DNA from: a virus
Lineage: Duplodnaviria; Caudoviricetes
Direction: 5' to 3' (one strand)
DNA length: 64,000 nucleotides
Virus record (IMG/VR): IMGVR_UViG_3300050034_000334
Part shown: piece by piece, positions 1,329 through 55,422 of the stretch
How the letters are laid out: each line of letters begins with the position of its first letter
Position numbering within the stretch: position 1 is the stretch's first letter
Program-made: the position numbers and the translations under genes
Notes under the pieces: generated by a model
Told to the model about the DNA's origin: nothing
Databases searched by the model: none
The model's input: only the letters and a program-made list of their open reading frames with translations

Positions 1329-4187
1329 ATGGCAACTGTTGACACCAACCTTGATTCCGCCATATTCACTGGCAACTCTCAGTTTGTTTTCAGTGGATCC
1401 AATCTGTATGTGGTAGGAAACACCACAACGACTGGAAGTCTGGATGTATTCCTTTCAACAGATTACGGATACACCTTTACAAACGTCGGTTCTGTGACCG
1501 TTGCTGGAGATACAACCAAGGGATTTGATCCTGCTGTGTGCCTTGACTCCGGCGGGATTCTTCGCATCGTTGGAACTATCTATGGCTCAGGTGGTTCCAC
1601 CTCCCTAGGGATCTACTTCTTCAACATCAGCACACACACGTTTGCCAGCAACTCTCCATTCATAATTGTAGCGGGATCTCAGATTGGCCGCGACTACGAT
1701 GTCGCGATGCTGCCTGACTTGACGGTGATGGTCGTGTCCTCCTTGCTGAATCAGGGAGGTTTCTACGGAGAGACTGTGATGGCCTATTTCCTAAGTGCCA
1801 GCACTTCTTCTCCTGCAGTTTTGAGTTCGCATGAACTCACTTCAAGTCCATTCAGATCTGGAAACACTTTCGGAACTGTCTCGACTTTGGCAAATGCAAC
1901 TGGAGTGGAAGTCTATCTAGGATCTCACAACAAGGTTTTCACCTTCACTCCGTTCCCAGCATCCATCACTCTTTACAAATACACCCAGAGCACCACAACC
2001 TGGGCAACCAGCACCTTGACTACCATAATGTGTCAGTACATCGATGATAGAATGACCATCATTGGCGATGGCACAAAGCGGTATCTGAGTCAGTGTTTCT
2101 TCACTCAGACCAGGTACAGTCTTGTTGGAAATGCCCTGCTGGGATACAGCGCGGATTCAGGAGCCACTTGGTCATGGGAATCCTATCTTGGAACAGGACT
2201 GCAATCAATCACTGATCCTGTGATCAGTGTCGCGCCTGAAGGATTGCGTTTTTCTTATGTGGAGAAGAACTTCACTTCCACCAACACTGGCAATGTGATG
2301 AACGGAACGCTCCGTGTCAAGCTCCTGGGTGTCGCTCCTTGGTCCATCACGATTGATCCGACTTTCTACAATGTCATCACCACTTCACGTCTGAGAGGAA
2401 CCAAGGACAAACTTCTTGCAGGAATGCTCTATGCCCTGATGGGAGAAACCACCTCTGGAGATGGTCAATTCTACACAGGATACAGCGTTCCACCAGTAGC
2501 TGCCATCGCTACTTCTACGATTTCTCTTCCAAGAGGAAGCACTCTAGTTTTGGACGCATCTGCAAGCTACGATCTAAACGGAAGCCCTCTACGTTTCACC
2601 TGGTCCACCGACAACGCGGTTGTACATGTAACCCCGATTCCTGACATTACTGGAGCAGCGAATACAGCCGCCATCTTCACTCCAACGAATACAGCTGCTC
2701 CTCTTCAAACAGCCCATGTGAGCGTGGTTGTAGAAGATCTCGATTTGAATGGCAATCCTATCCATCCCTGGGATCCAGTTCATCACACACCTGCAAGTGA
2801 ATTGGCAACATGTACGGTCACGATTCCTCTTCTTCTGGCCCCGGTTATCGGATATCTGTCACCGTTCAATGTCTCTAGAGGAACAATTGTAAGGATCGCT
2901 CCAACAATCACTGACGATGCTGTTGGAGTGACTCTCAGCTATGCTTGGACTCAGGTGTCTGGCACCACGATTGCTCTGAGTGACACAGATTTTCCATTCC
3001 TGAATGTTCTAACTCAGGCGGCTCTGCTAACAGGTGAAAGCCTGGTGTTCTCTCTATCTGTAAGTGATGGAATCAATCTTCCAGTTTTCAGAAATTTCAC
3101 CATCAATGTCGCTGCTCATGCTTTTGCTGAGCCGGATACTTTCATCAGTAGAGGAGTCTGGAGCGGCAACATCGCCCAGCGTAACACAGCTGGTTCCTAC
3201 CTCTCTGATGAGAGTTGCCTTGCATCTTCTCTGAACAATTACAAGAAGTACACCATGATTGATGGCACTGAAAGAACTCTGGTTGTCACGCCAACAGACA
3301 TCATGGTGTTTAACTACAGCGGTGCCACTGATACCACTCCACAGCAGGTGATTCTTCGCAGATTCTTTCCTCCTGGATTTCTGACAGTAGTTGACGGTGT
3401 TCAAACTGAAGACGACTACACGATCATGTTGGCAAGTGACGGGAATCTCTACAAGTACACCACAGCCCCGGCCATCAACACTGACAACTATGATTCCATA
3501 ATCTACTTGCCTTCTTTGACCTCCATGACCTTTAACAAGTTGCTGTGCACCTACAATTTCAACAACACTCGAGTTCTGGCACTCAGTGGACCTCAAGGAT
3601 GCTACCTGCTCCAGATCGACAATGCCTACTTTACCACGACCATTGGCATGGCAATTTCTCCTTCATCCAAGCTCCTGTTTGGAGGATCGAATGTAGTCTG
3701 GATTCGCACCAACAACGTAGAGTCAACCATTCAGGGGAAGGTTCTGCTTGGAACTGTCCAAAATGGCAACACCTACGAAACTCTGATCGATTTGAGCAAG
3801 AGAATTATCCTTGGAACATGGGAATCGGCCAATTTGAGCAACGCGATCGTAGACTCAGGGGAAATTCTTTTCAATGCAGAGTCGAGCTACATGGGATTCC
3901 CATCTCCTCCAGTTCTGGTTTCTGCGTTGGTTGGAACCATTTCGCATTTTATCGCTCCTGTGTGGATCACCTGGACACAGAATCGCCCAGACCTGATTTC
4001 ACTGTACAACCTCTTTACCTCGAATGATGGAGGAACTTCTTGGAGTGAAGCTCTCACAGTGACCAACGGCAACCAGTTGTCTGCTATTCTCCCAATGACT
4101 CAGGGTTACACCTACCAGCTTCGAATGCGAGCAATTAACACTGATGGAGTGAGTGGATGGTCAAATGTACTGTCCGTGTCCATCTAG
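1329..4187 (+). CDS. Large beta-rich virion/tail protein (propeller-like, PKD/Ig-like and C-terminal FN3-like domains)
   Basis: ~950 aa S/T/G-rich; LDASASYDLNGSPLRFTWST and YAWTQVSG (PKD-like); YTYQLRMRAINTDGVSGWSNVLSV (FN3-like). Confidence 0.65.
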   Translation: MATVDTNLDSAIFTGNSQFVFSGSNLYVVGNTTTTGSLDVFLSTDYGYTFTNVGSVTVAGDTTKGFDPAVCLDSGGILRIVGTIYGSGGSTSLGIYFFNISTHTFASNSPFIIVAGSQIGRDYDVAMLPDLTVMVVSSLLNQGGFYGETVMAYFLSASTSSPAVLSSHELTSSPFRSGNTFGTVSTLANATGVEVYLGSHNKVFTFTPFPASITLYKYTQSTTTWATSTLTTIMCQYIDDRMTIIGDGTKRYLSQCFFTQTRYSLVGNALLGYSADSGATWSWESYLGTGLQSITDPVISVAPEGLRFSYVEKNFTSTNTGNVMNGTLRVKLLGVAPWSITIDPTFYNVITTSRLRGTKDKLLAGMLYALMGETTSGDGQFYTGYSVPPVAAIATSTISLPRGSTLVLDASASYDLNGSPLRFTWSTDNAVVHVTPIPDITGAANTAAIFTPTNTAAPLQTAHVSVVVEDLDLNGNPIHPWDPVHHTPASELATCTVTIPLLLAPVIGYLSPFNVSRGTIVRIAPTITDDAVGVTLSYAWTQVSGTTIALSDTDFPFLNVLTQAALLTGESLVFSLSVSDGINLPVFRNFTINVAAHAFAEPDTFISRGVWSGNIAQRNTAGSYLSDESCLASSLNNYKKYTMIDGTERTLVVTPTDIMVFNYSGATDTTPQQVILRRFFPPGFLTVVDGVQTEDDYTIMLASDGNLYKYTTAPAINTDNYDSIIYLPSLTSMTFNKLLCTYNFNNTRVLALSGPQGCYLLQIDNAYFTTTIGMAISPSSKLLFGGSNVVWIRTNNVESTIQGKVLLGTVQNGNTYETLIDLSKRIILGTWESANLSNAIVDSGEILFNAESSYMGFPSPPVLVSALVGTISHFIAPVWITWTQNRPDLISLYNLFTSNDGGTSWSEALTVTNGNQLSAILPMTQGYTYQLRMRAINTDGVSGWSNVLSVSI

Positions 4188-5200: not shown

Positions 5201-5955
5201 ATGACAGTATTATCAATAACATGGACACTGTCTTGCTTACTCGTCTGGCCACTATAAGAGGTCGGCACAGTCATCTTGGAACTCAGATTCTCTTCGAGGA
5301 CAGGAACATTGCTCGACTCCATGGGAAGATTGAGCAACTTGAGAAGGACAAGATCGAACTGGTCAAGGTTCAGACTCTCATTGACCGAGCCATAACGACA
5401 ATCAGCGCAAATGGGATCGGGAAGATCGAGCAGGTTGTGACTGCTGGACTTCATCAAGTCTTCGGAAACAGAGGGAATCTGCGTTTCGTAGTTGAGAAGA
5501 AAGAGGGCAAACGCGGCAACATCTACAAGCTCAAGGTACAGAAGACTCGCAAAGATGGTCTCGTGATCCAAGGAGATGTCCTCAAGTCCTTCGGCGGCGG
5601 CCTGGCAAACGTCATCAGCTTTCTTCTCCGAGTCATGATGATCAAGAAGTTCCGCTTAACCCCATTTATAGTTCTGGATGAAAGTTTCTCAAACGTCAGT
5701 GCAAACTACTTGCCACAGGTGAGTGCTATGCTAAAATCTCTCACGTCAAAACATGGATTTACAGTACTGCTTGTTACTCATCAGGCAAGAGTAGCTGAAG
5801 AGGCAGATGCTATTTACCAAGCAGTTCCCAGTGATGACGAGAATGGTTCACCTCAACTTGTGAAGACAGAATTTTCGGAGGATCTTTTTGCTAATTTACC
5901 TTCTTCAGAATCTAGCCAACAAGAAATGTTACGTGGGTCAATGGAGGGGGAATAA
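5173..5955 (+). CDS. SbcC/Rad50/SMC ATPase, C-terminal half
   Basis: Coiled coil, then signature SFGGG and Walker B FIVLDESF, LLVTH; no Walker A; start may be ATG 5221. Confidence 0.8.
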   Translation: MASELPNLLNDSIINNMDTVLLTRLATIRGRHSHLGTQILFEDRNIARLHGKIEQLEKDKIELVKVQTLIDRAITTISANGIGKIEQVVTAGLHQVFGNRGNLRFVVEKKEGKRGNIYKLKVQKTRKDGLVIQGDVLKSFGGGLANVISFLLRVMMIKKFRLTPFIVLDESFSNVSANYLPQVSAMLKSLTSKHGFTVLLVTHQARVAEEADAIYQAVPSDDENGSPQLVKTEFSEDLFANLPSSESSQQEMLRGSMEGE

Positions 5956-6514
5956 TCTTCGTCACAGATGGAGTATGCATCTGCGAGATGCCTTCAAGTA
6001 CAAAATAGATACACGGTTGGCTCGTGCAATCAGAAAATACGGTGAAGAATCCTTCACTCTCGAGATTCTCTCTTCTGCTTCATCTCCAGAAGAACTCAAT
6101 AAGTTAGAAACCTTGTGGATTGTGGTTCTGAATAGCATCAATCCAGAATTTGGGTATAACATGACTTTTGGAGGAGATTCGAGAACTCCTGATGAAGAAA
6201 CTCGAAGGAAAATTGGTGATAGCAATCGAGGACAAAAACGAGGTCCGGAAGCTCTGGCTAATCTATCCAGATGCAAGCAAGGTTCAAAACACCCTATGTT
6301 TGGAAAACATCATTCCCTGATTACTAGGAATCAGATGGCAAAATCTCACTCTGGAGTGCCTAAAGGAACTCCCAGTGAAGAGACAAAAGCAAGTATCAGT
6401 AGATCGTGCCAGGGAAGAATTCCTTGGAATAAGGGGAAGAGCGATGCTCGATACAACGCTACTCCGAAGGCTGAAGCCGAAGCCATTGGAAGAGATAATT
6501 TCGAGGCTGAATGA
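5888..6514 (+). CDS. GIY-YIG homing endonuclease with NUMOD3
   Basis: IYLLQN..KCYVGQ, GYNMT; TTG start with GGAGG RBS; overlaps both neighbours. Confidence 0.85.
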   Translation: MLIYLLQNLANKKCYVGQWRGNNLRHRWSMHLRDAFKYKIDTRLARAIRKYGEESFTLEILSSASSPEELNKLETLWIVVLNSINPEFGYNMTFGGDSRTPDEETRRKIGDSNRGQKRGPEALANLSRCKQGSKHPMFGKHHSLITRNQMAKSHSGVPKGTPSEETKASISRSCQGRIPWNKGKSDARYNATPKAEAEAIGRDNFEAE

Positions 6515-7333: not shown

Positions 7334-7363
7334 ATACCCGATTATTAAATTCATAGAGTAGAG
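7334..7363 (+). promoter_or_regulatory. Bipartite promoter-like motif ATACCCG-N17-GTAGAG
   Basis: Matches motif recurring 15x; upstream of 7395. Confidence 0.6.
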
Positions 7364-7394
7364 AGTCCAAGACTACTGATCCCGAGGCAAAGAC

Positions 7395-7781
7395 GTGAAA
7401 GCAACAAGGGATGATTACCGCGCATTTTTCGATTATCTTGATTGTCCAGAATCTAAGACAACGGAGACAGGCTGCTCTCATGAAGATGCAGTAGTCCTAT
7501 CTCAGTTTTCTGATTTCTCTGTGCCTTCTAGGATCTCAACTATTCGTAGACGAAGCATTAGTCCACAGGCTGGAAAGGCACTATCTATCCTTGGTCATGC
7601 CATCGAGTACTTATCAGACGAATTCATACATGACTACGATGGAGTCACACAAGTAGGTATGAGTGCACAGATCAGAGCAATTCAGATACTGATGGCCGCT
7701 AACCGTCAGGTCTATTTTGAATGCCCAGAAATGCCAACAGTGATGGAAAGGATACGGAGAGTACTTCATGGGATCAGGTAA
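7395..7781 (+). CDS. Conserved hypothetical protein (Acidobacteriaceae-like)
   Basis: RRSISPQAGKALSILGHAIEYLSDEF...ANRQVYFECPE, recalled from memory. Confidence 0.55.
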   Translation: MKATRDDYRAFFDYLDCPESKTTETGCSHEDAVVLSQFSDFSVPSRISTIRRRSISPQAGKALSILGHAIEYLSDEFIHDYDGVTQVGMSAQIRAIQILMAANRQVYFECPEMPTVMERIRRVLHGIR

Positions 7782-38747: not shown

Positions 38748-38913
38748 CAACGCCGGTGCTCTATCCAGGCTGAGCTACCACCAAGCGAATGGACCGTTCC
38801 GCCGACCTTGATTCCCCTCTAGAAAAGGAATCCTGGGACTCTTAGGGCATGGTCACTTGCTCTGTCTAAACGGGTGGGTTGGATTCGGACCAACGACCAC
38901 CGGCTGCTTGTTG
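38748..38913 (-). ncRNA. Circularly permuted tRNA-like RNA (class I core, no anticodon loop, no CCA)
   Basis: 3' half (38904-38871) precedes 5' half (38784-38752); stems complementary. Confidence 0.75.
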
Positions 38914-54216: not shown

Positions 54217-54299
54217 TGGTGCCCAGAAAGGGGATCGAACCCTCACGATTTCTCAACGGTTTTTAAGACCGCAGCGTCTGCCAGTTTCGCCATCCGGGC
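54217..54299 (-). tRNA. tRNA-Leu (TAA)
   Basis: Loop CTTAAAA, A73, CCA. Confidence 0.95.
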
Positions 54300-54647
54300 A
54301 CGAACCTTACCTGTGTTTCTTCCACAAAATGTGAGAAGTTGACTGTCGCAGTTGGGACAAACCTTTCTCATGTTCTCCCGACGGCAATCTCGCTTTCTCC
54401 CATTGATGTGGTCAATTCTCATTACCAGAACTTGACCGTTCCACATTCCTGTCAAGCCACAGATCGTACAAACTTCTGGAAGTTCTTCTCTGAATCGATC
54501 TTTGGCTGCTTGTAGATGTTCAGAGTTGTCTACAAACACCACAGAGTCTAATAACTTGAGTCTGTGAGATGTCGTGCCAGGTTTCCAAGGTTTTCCACCT
54601 GGCACTCTTCTGGAATCAAATCCATTGCTAAATGGCTTTCCACTCAT
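54243..54647 (-). CDS. HNH homing endonuclease whose 3' end runs into tRNA-Leu(TAA)
   Basis: CTICG..IDHINGRKRD.RRENMRKVCPNCD. Confidence 0.85.
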   Translation of the reverse strand: MSGKPFSNGFDSRRVPGGKPWKPGTTSHRLKLLDSVVFVDNSEHLQAAKDRFREELPEVCTICGLTGMWNGQVLVMRIDHINGRKRDCRRENMRKVCPNCDSQLLTFCGRNTGKVRARMAKLADAAVLKTVEKS

Positions 54648-55075: not shown

Positions 55076-55160
55076 TGGTGCCCGATAAGAGACTCGAACT
55101 CTCACGCCTTGCGACAACAGATCCTAAGTCTGCCGCGTCTGCCAATTCCGCCAACCGGGC
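55076..55160 (-). tRNA. tRNA-Leu (TAG)
   Basis: Loop CTTAGGA, CCA. Confidence 0.95.
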
Positions 55161-55173
55161 ACTTACTAAACTC

Positions 55174-55329
55174 TTGTACGAACGAATGACGAGATGGGAA
55201 ATGCCTTTCGGCTACCGCTGCCTTTGCCAGCTTGGCTACTCCCCGTCATGGTCGGGGAGACAGGACTCGAACCTGTGAAGACTTTCGTCGGCGGTTCCAA
55301 GATAACCCACTACTCTACGGCTCGTACAA
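55174..55329 (-). ncRNA. Circularly permuted class II tRNA-like RNA with internal ACCA
   Basis: 3' half (55295-55249), TGA linker, 5' half (55245-55214); 8 bp terminal stem. Confidence 0.85.
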
Positions 55330-55333
55330 AACT

Positions 55334-55422
55334 TGGTCGGGATGAAGGGAGTCGAACCCTCACGCTACTTGATTTCGCTCGTGGACCTGAACCACGCGTG
55401 TCTGCCATTTCACCACATCCCG
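55334..55422 (-). tRNA. tRNA-Leu (CAG)
   Basis: Loop TTCAGGT, CCA. Confidence 0.95.

What the first reader, a model, noticed from the sequence alone, without database searches (positions are those of the whole stretch)
55174..55329. Circularly permuted, anticodon-less class II tRNA with internal CCA inside the Leu array
Seen (minus strand): TTGTACGA...ACCGC (anticodon 3' strand), variable arm GAC-GAAA-GTC, T-arm ACAGG-TTCGAGT-CCTGT, CTCCCCG-A-CCA, 3 nt linker TGA, CGGGGAG, TA, D-arm GCC-AAGCTGGCAA-AGGC, A, GCGGT, then GCC-GAAA-GGC...TCGTACAA. Acceptor (7/7), anticodon stem (5/5) and an 8 bp terminal stem are perfectly complementary, so it is one permuted RNA, not two broken tRNAs. Established: permutation occurs in two-piece tmRNA, algal/archaeal permuted tRNAs and YrlA Y RNAs; LeuRS largely ignores the anticodon and reads A73. 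Inference: RNase P cleavage plus 3' trimming would give a two-piece, possibly leucylatable or tyrosylatable RNA lacking an anticodon (decoy for tRNA-targeting toxins, aminoacyl donor or Y-like RNA), co-induced by the attenuator. No Ro60 gene is in the window.
Basis: partly seen in the sequence, partly recalled or inferred. Interest (0 to 1): 0.88.

Follow-up and report, generated by a model that had tools for sequence, protein, structure and literature searches.

The report
Phage Y RNA with tRNA-like core
The "back-to-front tRNA" among this large phage's leucine tRNA genes is real: it is a phage version of a known small RNA class (YrlA-type Y RNAs, partners of the ring protein Ro60), unusual mainly because its sealed acceptor end carries a built-in CCA and no Ro60 gene lies in the sequenced part of the genome.

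Summary
Window 55173-55329 (minus strand) is one structured RNA: a long terminal stem encloses a circularly permuted tRNA-like core (T-arm, 7-bp acceptor capped by A-CCA-UGA, D-arm, 5-bp anticodon-like stem).

It is not a new kind of RNA but a YrlA-type Y RNA. A covariance model built from 27 related phage elements, with this one left out, finds it end to end (69 bits, E 3e-18). The same model finds the Ro-adjacent RNAs of Mycobacterium phage Rizal, Streptomyces phage Quantum and Gordonia phage Sixama.

The family's stems covary strongly. All 11 near-complete phage genomes carrying it encode TROVE (Ro60/Rsr) or the Ro-like DUF2828.

This 187 kb contig (about 60% complete) has no such gene, yet holds at least four more RNAs with the same handle. 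In jumbo phages these RNAs lie more than 10 kb from the Ro gene, inside tRNA arrays, as here.

About a third to a half of family members have NCCA right after a 7-bp acceptor stem (chance 1 in 64). This suggests RNase P opening into a two-piece RNA, as shown for M. smegmatis YrlA.

The scan has met this kind before, in other phages. Verdict: new member of a known kind.

The parts
55173..55329 (-). Whole Y RNA (Y1), as matched by the leave-one-out covariance model. The terminal stem can extend to 55172-55331.
   Evidence: R1 hit over model positions 1-144, 69 bits, E 3.3e-18; fold; coordinates.
55320..55331 (-). Lower (handle) stem, 5' strand: UUUUGUACGAGC.
   Evidence: Pairs with 55172-55183. 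The equivalent 9 bp covary across 29 family members.
55315..55321 (-). GCCGUAG. This is the counterpart of the YrlA motif GNCGAAN0-1G (putative Ro60/Rsr contact), with the second C bulged.
   Evidence: Motif from PMC4201824. In the family alignment, G18, C22 and G23 are invariant. Bulged C24 is followed by G25 paired to U178 in 27 of 29 members; ours and L047 have G-C there.
55306..55311 (-). Upper stem, 5' strand: AGUGGG.
   Evidence: Pairs with CCCA(U)CU at 55192-55198. Family upper stem is NNNNGGG/UCCNNNN (helix 2).
55301..55305 (-). UUAUC, part of the family-wide GGGUUAUC. It corresponds to the conserved YUAY of YrlA.
   Evidence: YUAY is described in PMC4201824.
55291..55295 (-). Anticodon-like stem, 3'-side strand: ACCGC.
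   Evidence: 5/5 pairing with GCGGU at 55214-55218.
55280..55289 (-). Variable-arm hairpin: GAC-GAAA-GUC.
   Evidence: A similar arm is present in L034b but absent from most relatives.
55260..55276 (-). T-arm: ACAGG-UUCGAGU-CCUGU.
   Evidence: The T-stem covaries in the family (helix 3).
55253..55259 (-). Acceptor stem, 3' strand: CUCCCCG.
   Evidence: 7/7 with CGGGGAG. The identical stem occurs in phiM12, L034, L049, L050, L059, L062 and L063.
55249..55252 (-). A73-C74-C75-A76, encoded inside the cap loop.
   Evidence: NCCA at this place in 12 of 27 and 6 of 20 family members.
55246..55248 (-). 3-nt linker UGA. If RNase P cuts between 55246 and 55245, this is at once the 3' trailer and the 5' leader.
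   Evidence: Sequence. The cleavage is inferred from the M. smegmatis YrlA precedent.
55239..55245 (-). Acceptor stem, 5' strand: CGGGGAG (C1-G72).
55220..55236 (-). D-arm: GCC-AAGCUGGCAA-AGGC, with A14, G15, G18 and G19. It is preceded by U8-A9.
   Evidence: (aligned to the YrlA D-arm).
55214..55218 (-). Anticodon-like stem, 5'-side strand: GCGGU.
55203..55212 (-). Extra GNRA-capped hairpin GCC-GAAA-GGC. It is an insertion relative to most family members.
   Evidence: It appears as an insertion in the model alignment.
55192..55198 (-). Upper stem, 3' strand: CCCAUCU.
   Evidence: It corresponds to the family's conserved (A)UCC block.
55172..55183 (-). Lower (handle) stem, 3' strand: GUUCGUACAAGA. 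It corresponds to the family's conserved ACUUGCUCGU block.

Best explanation
The element is a YrlA-type Y RNA gene of a large (probably jumbo) phage from peat and wetland habitats.

Shown here:
- It belongs to a phage RNA family with a conserved, covarying handle: a lower stem, a bulged C, an upper stem ending in GGG, then UUAUC. The handle encloses a circularly permuted tRNA-like module.
- In other phages this family sits beside, or in the same genome as, a Ro60/Rsr (TROVE) or Ro-like DUF2828 gene.

Inferred:
- The handle binds a Ro60-type ring protein, encoded in the unsequenced ~40% of this genome or by the host. The tRNA-like module is the effector or tRNA-mimic domain.
- The RNA is transcribed with the Leu tRNA array and released by the same enzymes. 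It starts 2-4 nt after the CCA of tRNA-Leu(CAG) and ends about 11 nt before tRNA-Leu(UAG).
- Because it has a 7-bp acceptor stem stacked on a T-arm, with A73-CCA encoded in the cap, RNase P cuts 5' of C1 (between 55246 and 55245). Exonucleases then trim the UGA. The result is a nicked, two-piece Y RNA held together by the acceptor, anticodon-like and handle helices: a 5' piece of about 83 nt ending in CCA and a 3' piece of about 74 nt. This is what was found experimentally for M. smegmatis YrlA.
For: - Model built without this element: 69 bits, E 3.3e-18, full length.
- The same model hits RNAs next to annotated Ro-like genes: Mycobacterium phage Rizal 72.5 bits, about 160 nt upstream of the gene; Gordonia phage Sixama 67 and 53 bits, in the tRNA array about 1 kb downstream; Streptomyces phage Quantum 59 bits.
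- Rfam's best non-tRNA hit is YrlA.
- Covariation on 29 sequences: 93.4% of cells paired against 67.5% in shuffles; covariation score 0.756 against 0.243; 0 of 500 shuffles reach it; slid registers give 47% or less. The handle stem was not part of any search pattern.
- TROVE is present in 16 of 20 contigs carrying family members, and in 8 of 8 that are at least 90% complete. Of three further complete contigs, two have TROVE and one has DUF2828.
- In 79 TROVE-anchored loci, 38 carry the RNA within 5 kb, and all 69 hits lie on the gene's strand.
- In six jumbo genomes the RNAs lie more than 10 kb from TROVE, so the setting seen here is normal for large phages.
- This contig has a second full member (77 bits) and further handle-bearing RNAs.
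- A TROVE-encoding phage (L485) has an RNA with a nearly identical handle about 1 kb upstream of its TROVE gene.
- NCCA directly after the 7-bp stem in 12 of 27 and 6 of 20 members, against 1 in 64 by chance.
- M. smegmatis YrlA (7-bp stem) is cut by RNase P and ends in CCA in vivo (PMC4201824; 10.1101/312249).
- The element differs at 1 of 157 positions in a variant strain whose flanking tRNAs are rearranged.
Against: - No TROVE, DUF2828, DUF7788 or vWA gene, and no match to a family-specific TROVE profile, in the 187 kb held. There is none within 56 kb on one side and 131 kb on the other.
- The score against Rfam YrlA is far below the gathering cut-off (22.6 against 69) and covers only the tRNA-like core.
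- The handle departs from the family at its most conserved wobble pair (G-C instead of G-U). The GNCGAA motif reads GCCGUA.
- Nothing shows transcription or processing. The RNA-library data are assembled contigs that could be carried-over DNA, and they give no RNA ends.
- The TROVE-bearing jumbo phages are not close relatives of this phage: clamp-loader identity is about 23%.
Confidence: 0.75

Rival explanations
1. A Ro-independent tRNA mimic. The phage keeps the RNA for its tRNA-like module alone, for example as a decoy or sponge for host tRNA-targeting defence enzymes, synthetases or modification enzymes. There is no Ro60 partner in this system.
For: No Ro-type gene in 187 kb. The handle is changed at the conserved G-U pair and in the GNCGAA motif. 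The element sits inside a tRNA array. Different family members mimic different tRNAs: Leu-like D-arms, and an Asp anticodon arm in Y2.
Against: Every near-complete genome carrying the family has TROVE or DUF2828. At least five RNAs in this contig keep the same handle, with compensatory changes (GUAC/GUAC in Y1, GCAC/GUGC in Y2), so the handle is under selection. A nearly identical handle lies about 1 kb from TROVE in L485. The contig is only about 60% complete.
Confidence: 0.15
2. A permuted pre-tRNA gene that matures into a working tRNA through a circular intermediate, as in the red alga Cyanidioschyzon merolae.
For: The 3'-half-before-5'-half order and the closed acceptor resemble such genes. 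The resemblance is noted in 10.1101/312249.
Against: There is no anticodon loop anywhere in the element. In its place is a conserved, covarying Y RNA handle. Splicing endonucleases of that pathway are not reported in bacteria.
Confidence: 0.02
3. A chance junction of two decaying tRNA genes, or a two-piece (permuted) tmRNA gene.
For: It lies in a tRNA array. Junctions between tandem tRNAs give partial hits to the model (26.7 bits or less). There are weak Rfam hits to permuted tmRNA (15 bits).
Against: The match is full-length, and the handle and all arms covary across unrelated phages. There is no G3:U70 pair, no room for a tag reading frame, and ARAGORN finds no tmRNA. True permuted tmRNA genes seen in passing (L256, L333) look quite different.
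Confidence: 0.02

Closest known systems
YrlA (Y RNA-like A; Rfam RF02553) of bacteria and mycobacteriophages, bound by the Ro60 orthologue Rsr (Chen et al. 2014, PMC4201824; Wang et al. 2018, bioRxiv 10.1101/312249)
   Same: The ends pair in a long stem carrying a GNCGAA-type motif and a bulged C. YUAY follows the upper stem. The module order is V region, T-arm, capped acceptor-like stem, D-arm, closed by an anticodon-like stem. The tRNA tertiary-pair positions are present (U8, A14, G15/C48, G18, G19, UUCGA). The model built from this element's relatives hits the Rizal, Quantum and Sixama RNAs next to Ro-like genes.
   Different: No Ro gene in the held contig. The element is embedded in a tRNA array rather than next to rsr. 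It scores below the Rfam threshold. It has a full 7-bp acceptor with encoded A-CCA, whereas S. Typhimurium YrlA has 6 bp and a closed loop. It also has a long variable arm and an extra GNRA hairpin.
Mycobacterium smegmatis YrlA, the processed two-piece case (Chen et al. 2014)
   Same: A 7-bp acceptor stem. That RNA is cut by RNase P in vitro and in vivo, and its 5' piece ends in CCA, giving two Rsr-bound pieces.
   Different: In M. smegmatis the CA is added after cleavage; here the whole CCA is encoded. Processing of the phage RNA is untested. I could not retrieve the M. smegmatis sequence for direct alignment.
Two-piece (circularly permuted) tmRNA
   Same: The gene order is T-arm, acceptor 3' strand, ACCA, short spacer, acceptor 5' strand. 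Maturation removes the spacer.
   Different: No G3:U70 alanine identity pair, no tag reading frame or pseudoknots, and a normal D-arm is present.
Metazoan Y RNAs with Ro60
   Same: The handle design: a lower stem with a bulged C followed by G-U and A-U pairs, an internal loop, and an upper stem. The family's GC-C-GA/UUGC corresponds to the GGUCCGA site contacted by Ro60, as quoted in PMC4201824. From memory only, human Y4 carries GUAGUGGGUUAUC, the same 13 letters as here. That is a lead, not tested.
   Different: Metazoan Y RNAs have no tRNA-like module. The Rfam Y_RNA model gave no hit.

Membership tests
YrlA-type Y RNA (Chen et al. 2014; Rfam RF02553) | T-arm and D-arm stem-loops with a capped acceptor-like stem between them; the ends are joined through an anticodon-like stem | tested here: met
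   Sequence, fold. The YrlA model aligns to the T-arm, acceptor and D-arm. R1 gives a full-length hit.
YrlA-type Y RNA (Chen et al. 2014; Rfam RF02553) | GNCGAAN0-1G motif near the 5' end (putative Rsr site) in a stem formed by the RNA's two ends | tested here: inconclusive
   Ours reads GCCGUAG, one departure from the motif (A to U). Other family members show the same spread: GCCGAUAG, GCCGGAUG, and GCCGUAG in L245b. The bulged C is kept; the following pair is G-C here but G-U in 27 of 29.
YrlA-type Y RNA (Chen et al. 2014; Rfam RF02553) | Conserved YUAY before the V region, and tRNA tertiary-pair positions | tested here: met
   UUAU within GGGUUAUC. U8, A14, G15 with C48, G18-G19 and a UUCGAGU T-loop are all present. 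This is compatibility by sequence only.
YrlA-type Y RNA (Chen et al. 2014; Rfam RF02553) | Encoded within about 4 kb of, and on the same strand as, a Ro60/TROVE gene | tested here: not met
   No TROVE or Ro-like gene in the 187 kb contig. The contig is about 60% complete. In six jumbo phages that do have TROVE, family RNAs also lie more than 10 kb from it.
YrlA-type Y RNA (Chen et al. 2014; Rfam RF02553) | Reaches Rfam's gathering score (69 bits) | tested here: not met
   22.6 bits, model positions 29-81 only. The Ro-adjacent RNA of phage Quantum also fails, at 43 bits, so the threshold excludes genuine phage members.
YrlA-type Y RNA (Chen et al. 2014; Rfam RF02553) | Bound by Rsr/Ro60 | not testable with these tools
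   Needs immunoprecipitation. No partner protein is available in the contig to model.
Phage Ro60-associated Y RNA family defined here (model R1) | Full-length match to a model built from other members, which co-occur with TROVE or DUF2828 | tested here: met
   69 bits, E 3.3e-18. For the family: TROVE in 16 of 20 contigs and in 8 of 8 complete ones; all 69 hits are on the TROVE gene's strand.
Two-piece tmRNA | G3:U70 pair, tag reading frame, tmRNA D-analogue | tested here: not met
   The stem has G3-C70. There is no ORF or pseudoknot region. ARAGORN is negative. Rfam tmRNA_permuted scores 15 bits against a cut-off of 47.
Class II tRNA (Leu/Ser/Tyr), permuted | Long variable arm, an anticodon, and similarity to a resident class II tRNA | tested here: not met
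   A variable arm is present, but there is no anticodon loop. The de-permuted halves resemble no resident tRNA (best 24.5 of 79). The acceptor (C1-G72, A73) is nearest to the phage's tRNA-Pro(UGG).

The most novel reading that the evidence does not exclude
The NCCA-bearing members of this phage Y RNA family, including this element and its sister Y2, may be opened by RNase P into two-piece RNAs whose tRNA-like half is a true synthetase substrate. Y2 is a permuted tRNA-Asp mimic that keeps the anticodon loop CUGUCAA and G73-CCA. The result would be charged, tRNA-specific mimics tethered to a Ro60 ring. Such RNAs could act as decoys or sensors for host tRNA-targeting defences, or recruit synthetases or EF-Tu to a phage RNA-surveillance particle. 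Distinct mimic classes (Leu-like D-arm with a CGGGGAG acceptor and A73; Glu/Asp-like D-arm with a GCGGGGU acceptor) would then reflect distinct tRNA targets.
Probability: 0.15. Interest if true: 0.8.

Novelty: new member of a known kind. Interest (0 to 1): 0.45.

Why it matters
It removes a false lead: the element is not a new class of RNA. It also adds some facts about phage Y RNAs that I did not find in the papers I could read.
- The RNAs are common in large environmental phages, often several per genome.
- In jumbo phages they are scattered through tRNA arrays, far from the Ro60 gene.
- They fall into two designs: acceptor stems sealed by tetraloops, and 7-bp stems followed by an encoded NCCA.
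- The second design suggests that the RNase P-opened, two-piece form, seen so far only in M. smegmatis, is widespread. That can be tested directly in culturable phages such as Gordonia phage Sixama.
- The Rfam YrlA threshold misses these phage members, so genome annotations leave them blank.

Tried and rejected
- Rfam at gathering threshold found only tRNAs.
- Megablast of the locus against annotated phages found nothing useful.
- Looking for synteny through the upstream DUF932 gene gave no close relatives; best identity was 45%.
- The first strict DNA pattern found mostly tandem tRNAs, plus one AT-rich look-alike.
- The acceptor-hairpin pattern in prokaryote genomes gave chance hits in GC-rich DNA; one of them passed the T-arm filter but has no D-arm after the hairpin, and none was used further.
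- Two searches for M. smegmatis YrlA using the published primer sequence found no exact match, so there is no direct alignment to the one processed YrlA.
- Laying four metatranscriptome runs on the locus gave only assembled contigs. They show presence in RNA libraries of four studies and a variant strain, but no RNA ends, and DNA carry-over cannot be excluded.
- The clamp-loader comparison showed that the TROVE-bearing jumbo phages are not close kin. The expectation of a Ro gene in the missing 40% therefore rests on the family-wide association only.
- The supplement of Chen et al. 2014 and the 2020 Annual Review are not held. I cannot say whether encoded CCA in phage YrlAs was tabulated there.
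- I found no literature on DUF2828 as a Ro-like protein.
- RtcB is absent from the contig.
- DUF7873, a partner reported by an earlier scan note for a different double-module RNA, was not tested because I lacked its accession.
- The 'second permuted mimic' at 38752-38904 did not hold up as a family member: 14.8 bits, fold z = -0.34.

Full report
**1. The observation**

Read on the minus strand, window 55331-55172 is: UUUUGUACGAGC-C-GUAGAGU-AGUGGG-UUAUCUUGGA-ACCGC-C-GACGAAAGUC-UUC-ACAGG-UUCGAGU-CCUGU-CUCCCCG-ACCA-UGA-CGGGGAG-UA-GCC-AAGCUGGCAA-AGGC-A-GCGGU-A-GCCGAAAGGC-AUUU-CCCAUCU-CGUCAUUC-GUUCGUACAAGA. ARAGORN and Rfam call the flanking tRNA-Leu genes (CAG, ending at 55334, and UAG, starting at 55160) but nothing between them. 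The MFE fold contains the terminal stem, upper stem, anticodon-like stem, V hairpin, T-arm, capped acceptor and the extra GNRA hairpin (-59.7 kcal/mol, z = -3.57).

**2. What it is**

- A permissive Rfam scan gives YrlA as the best non-tRNA family. The hit (22.6 bits, E 0.029) spans exactly the T-arm, capped acceptor and D-arm.
- The window lies in a 187 kb IMG/VR viral contig that is about 60% complete and 50% GC. The phage occurs in peat, wetland and freshwater metagenomes.
- One YrlA, from M. smegmatis, has a 7-bp stem. It is cut by RNase P and ends in CCA in vivo, which gives two Rsr-bound pieces (PMC4201824; 10.1101/312249).

**3. Relatives**

- A sensitive blastn against annotated phages hit unannotated DNA 116 nt upstream of the "Ro-like RNA binding protein" of Streptomyces phage Quantum. 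It also hit a gap in Sinorhizobium phage phiM12, 2.6 kb upstream of a DUF2828 gene.
- The phiM12 element has the identical acceptor hairpin, CUCCCCG-ACCA-loop-CGGGGAG.
- Searching viral contigs for that hairpin and filtering for a T-arm gave nine viral elements.
- A second search was anchored on the handle motif GGGUUAUC followed by a T-arm, which leaves the acceptor and the terminal stem free. It gave 29 non-redundant full elements.

**4. Structure and covariation**

The 29-sequence alignment shows these features:
- a 9-bp lower stem;
- an invariant G..CCG with the second C bulged;
- a G-U pair in 27 of 29 members (G-C in ours and in its near-twin L047);
- an upper stem NNNNGGG/UCCNNNN;
- UUAUC, the YUAY of YrlA;
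- the tRNA-like module.

On this structure 93.4% of cells are paired, against 67.5% after shuffling. The covariation score is 0.756 against 0.243, and 0 of 500 shuffles reach it. Sliding the partners by 1-3 columns gives 47% or less. The handle geometry (bulged C, then G-U, then A-U) is that of the Ro60 site as quoted in Chen et al. 2014.

**5. Membership test**

A covariance model, R1, was built from 27 members without the window element and without L047.
- It finds window 55173-55329 (minus strand) over model positions 1-144 at 69 bits, E 3.3e-18. Everything else in the window scores 26.7 bits or less and is a junction between tRNAs.
- It also finds RNAs next to annotated Ro-like genes. These are Quantum (59 bits), Mycobacterium phage Rizal (72.5 bits, about 160 nt upstream of its Ro-like gene), and two unannotated RNAs inside the tRNA array of Gordonia phage Sixama (67 and 53 bits). 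One of the Sixama RNAs has an ACCA-C cap.
- The Quantum RNA itself scores only 43 bits on Rfam YrlA. Rfam's 69-bit cut-off therefore misses genuine phage members.

**6. Partner protein**

- TROVE is present in 16 of 20 contigs carrying family members, and in 8 of 8 that are at least 90% complete. The four without it are fragments that are 6-24% complete.
- Of three further complete contigs, two have TROVE and one has DUF2828. The DUF2828 protein also carries DUF7788 and a weak vWA match, a Ro60-like layout.
- Starting from the protein instead, 38 of 79 TROVE loci have at least one R1 hit within 5 kb. All 69 hits lie on the gene's strand.
- In smaller phages the RNA lies 130-2,800 nt from TROVE. 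In six jumbo genomes of 375-480 kb it lies more than 10 kb away.
- Our contig has no TROVE, DUF2828, DUF7788 or vWA gene, no match to a family-specific TROVE profile, and no tblastn hit.

**7. The rest of this phage**

R1 finds a second full member, Y2, at contig 154,078-154,218 (77 bits), right after tRNA-Val.
- Its handle matches ours with a compensatory change (GUAC/GUAC in ours, GCAC/GUGC in Y2).
- Its core is a permuted tRNA-Asp mimic that keeps an anticodon arm (loop CUGUCAA) and has G73-CCA in the cap.

Three more handle-bearing RNAs follow (Y3-Y5). Y5 is cut short by a 1.8-2.2 kb deletion relative to sister strains. An 83%-complete phage that does encode TROVE (L485) has an RNA with a nearly identical handle about 1 kb upstream of that gene. 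Neither Y1 nor Y2 is a recent copy of a resident tRNA.

**8. The internal CCA**

- NCCA directly follows the 7-bp stem in 12 of 27 motif-anchored members and in 6 of 20 TROVE-anchored members with a perfect stem. Chance is 1 in 64.
- NCCA caps are 4-14 nt long and AU-rich, like tRNA spacers. In L331 the cap is ACCA alone.
- The other caps are mostly tight loops such as UUCG, GCAA and GUAA.
- Together with the M. smegmatis precedent, this makes RNase P opening the likeliest fate. Nothing here shows it directly.

**9. Expression**

Contigs from four metatranscriptome studies contain the element with 1 difference in 157 nt, in a strain whose neighbouring tRNAs are rearranged. The viral contig L047 shows the same arrangement. 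These are assemblies: they give no RNA ends and cannot exclude DNA.

**10. Verdict**

The element is a new member of the known YrlA/Y RNA kind, from a phage family that Rfam does not capture. The missing Ro gene is most simply explained by the incomplete contig, though a Ro-independent role is not excluded. Earlier notes of this scan reported the same kind of RNA next to Ro60-like genes in Felix O1-type and other phages. They served as leads only.

Noticed in passing
L346:3379-3519 (+), contig 154,078-154,218 (outside the window): Second full family member, Y2 (R1 77 bits). It is a permuted tRNA-Asp mimic that retains an anticodon arm (UCUCC-CUGUCAA-GGAGG). Its acceptor is UGGCCCC-G-CCA-AAUCAU-GGGGCUG. 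Its handle is related to Y1's by a compensatory change.
   Followed up: partly
L346:3526-3637 (+); L347:12414-12561 (+); L347:12569-12611 (+): Three more RNAs with the Y handle (..GAGUCGAUG..UUUGGGUUAUC, CACGAGCCGUUGGAUUGGAUUAUC, UUUUGUACGAGCCGUUAGAUUUGGGUUAUC) but no permuted tRNA module; they are YrlB-like. The last one is truncated by a 1.8-2.2 kb deletion at contig 183,109 relative to sister strains L484, L495 and L511.
   Followed up: partly
It has no Y handle, gives only a partial 14.8-bit R1 hit, and its fold is no better than shuffles (z = -0.34). Weak.
   Followed up: partly
L256:~2483-2560 (+) and L333:~9929 (-): Viral contigs with circularly permuted (two-piece) tmRNA genes: T-arm, CAGCUCC-ACCA, a 4-5 nt spacer, then GGGGCUGAUCUGGUUUCGAC, with G3:U70.
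   Followed up: no
L001:7513-7572 (-) and identical copies in L002, L003, L005, L007, L008: AT-rich phage element: T-arm, AUUAUCC-U-ACCA-UAAU-GGAUAAU, D-arm, then an anticodon-like hairpin (CAAGU-AGUUUAA-ACUUG), all enclosed by a GGGAA../..UUCCC stem. This is a different permutation point, in the variable region. R1 scores 32.8 bits on the core only.
   Followed up: no
L349:5729-5861 and 5937-6070 (Gordonia phage Sixama, MN484601): Two unannotated family RNAs between annotated tRNAs, about 1 kb downstream of the Ro-like gene. One has an ACCA-C cap. Sixama is a culturable system in which to test two-piece processing.
   Followed up: partly
L485:~7360-7520 (+): In a TROVE-encoding phage, a Y RNA with a handle almost identical to our Y2's. 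Its tRNA-like part is in normal D-anticodon-T order, without an evident acceptor stem.
   Followed up: no
L022:64-164 and 5206-5333 (Sinorhizobium phage phiM12): Two further R1 hits (42 and 31 bits) in unannotated gaps of phiM12, besides the element at 3946-4095. phiM12 therefore has several Y-like RNAs near its DUF2828 gene.
   Followed up: no
window 54243-54647 (-): A 134-aa ORF with a weak HNH endonuclease match (E 5.6e-4) lies inside the Ser/Leu tRNA array, as is often seen in phage tRNA clusters.
   Followed up: no
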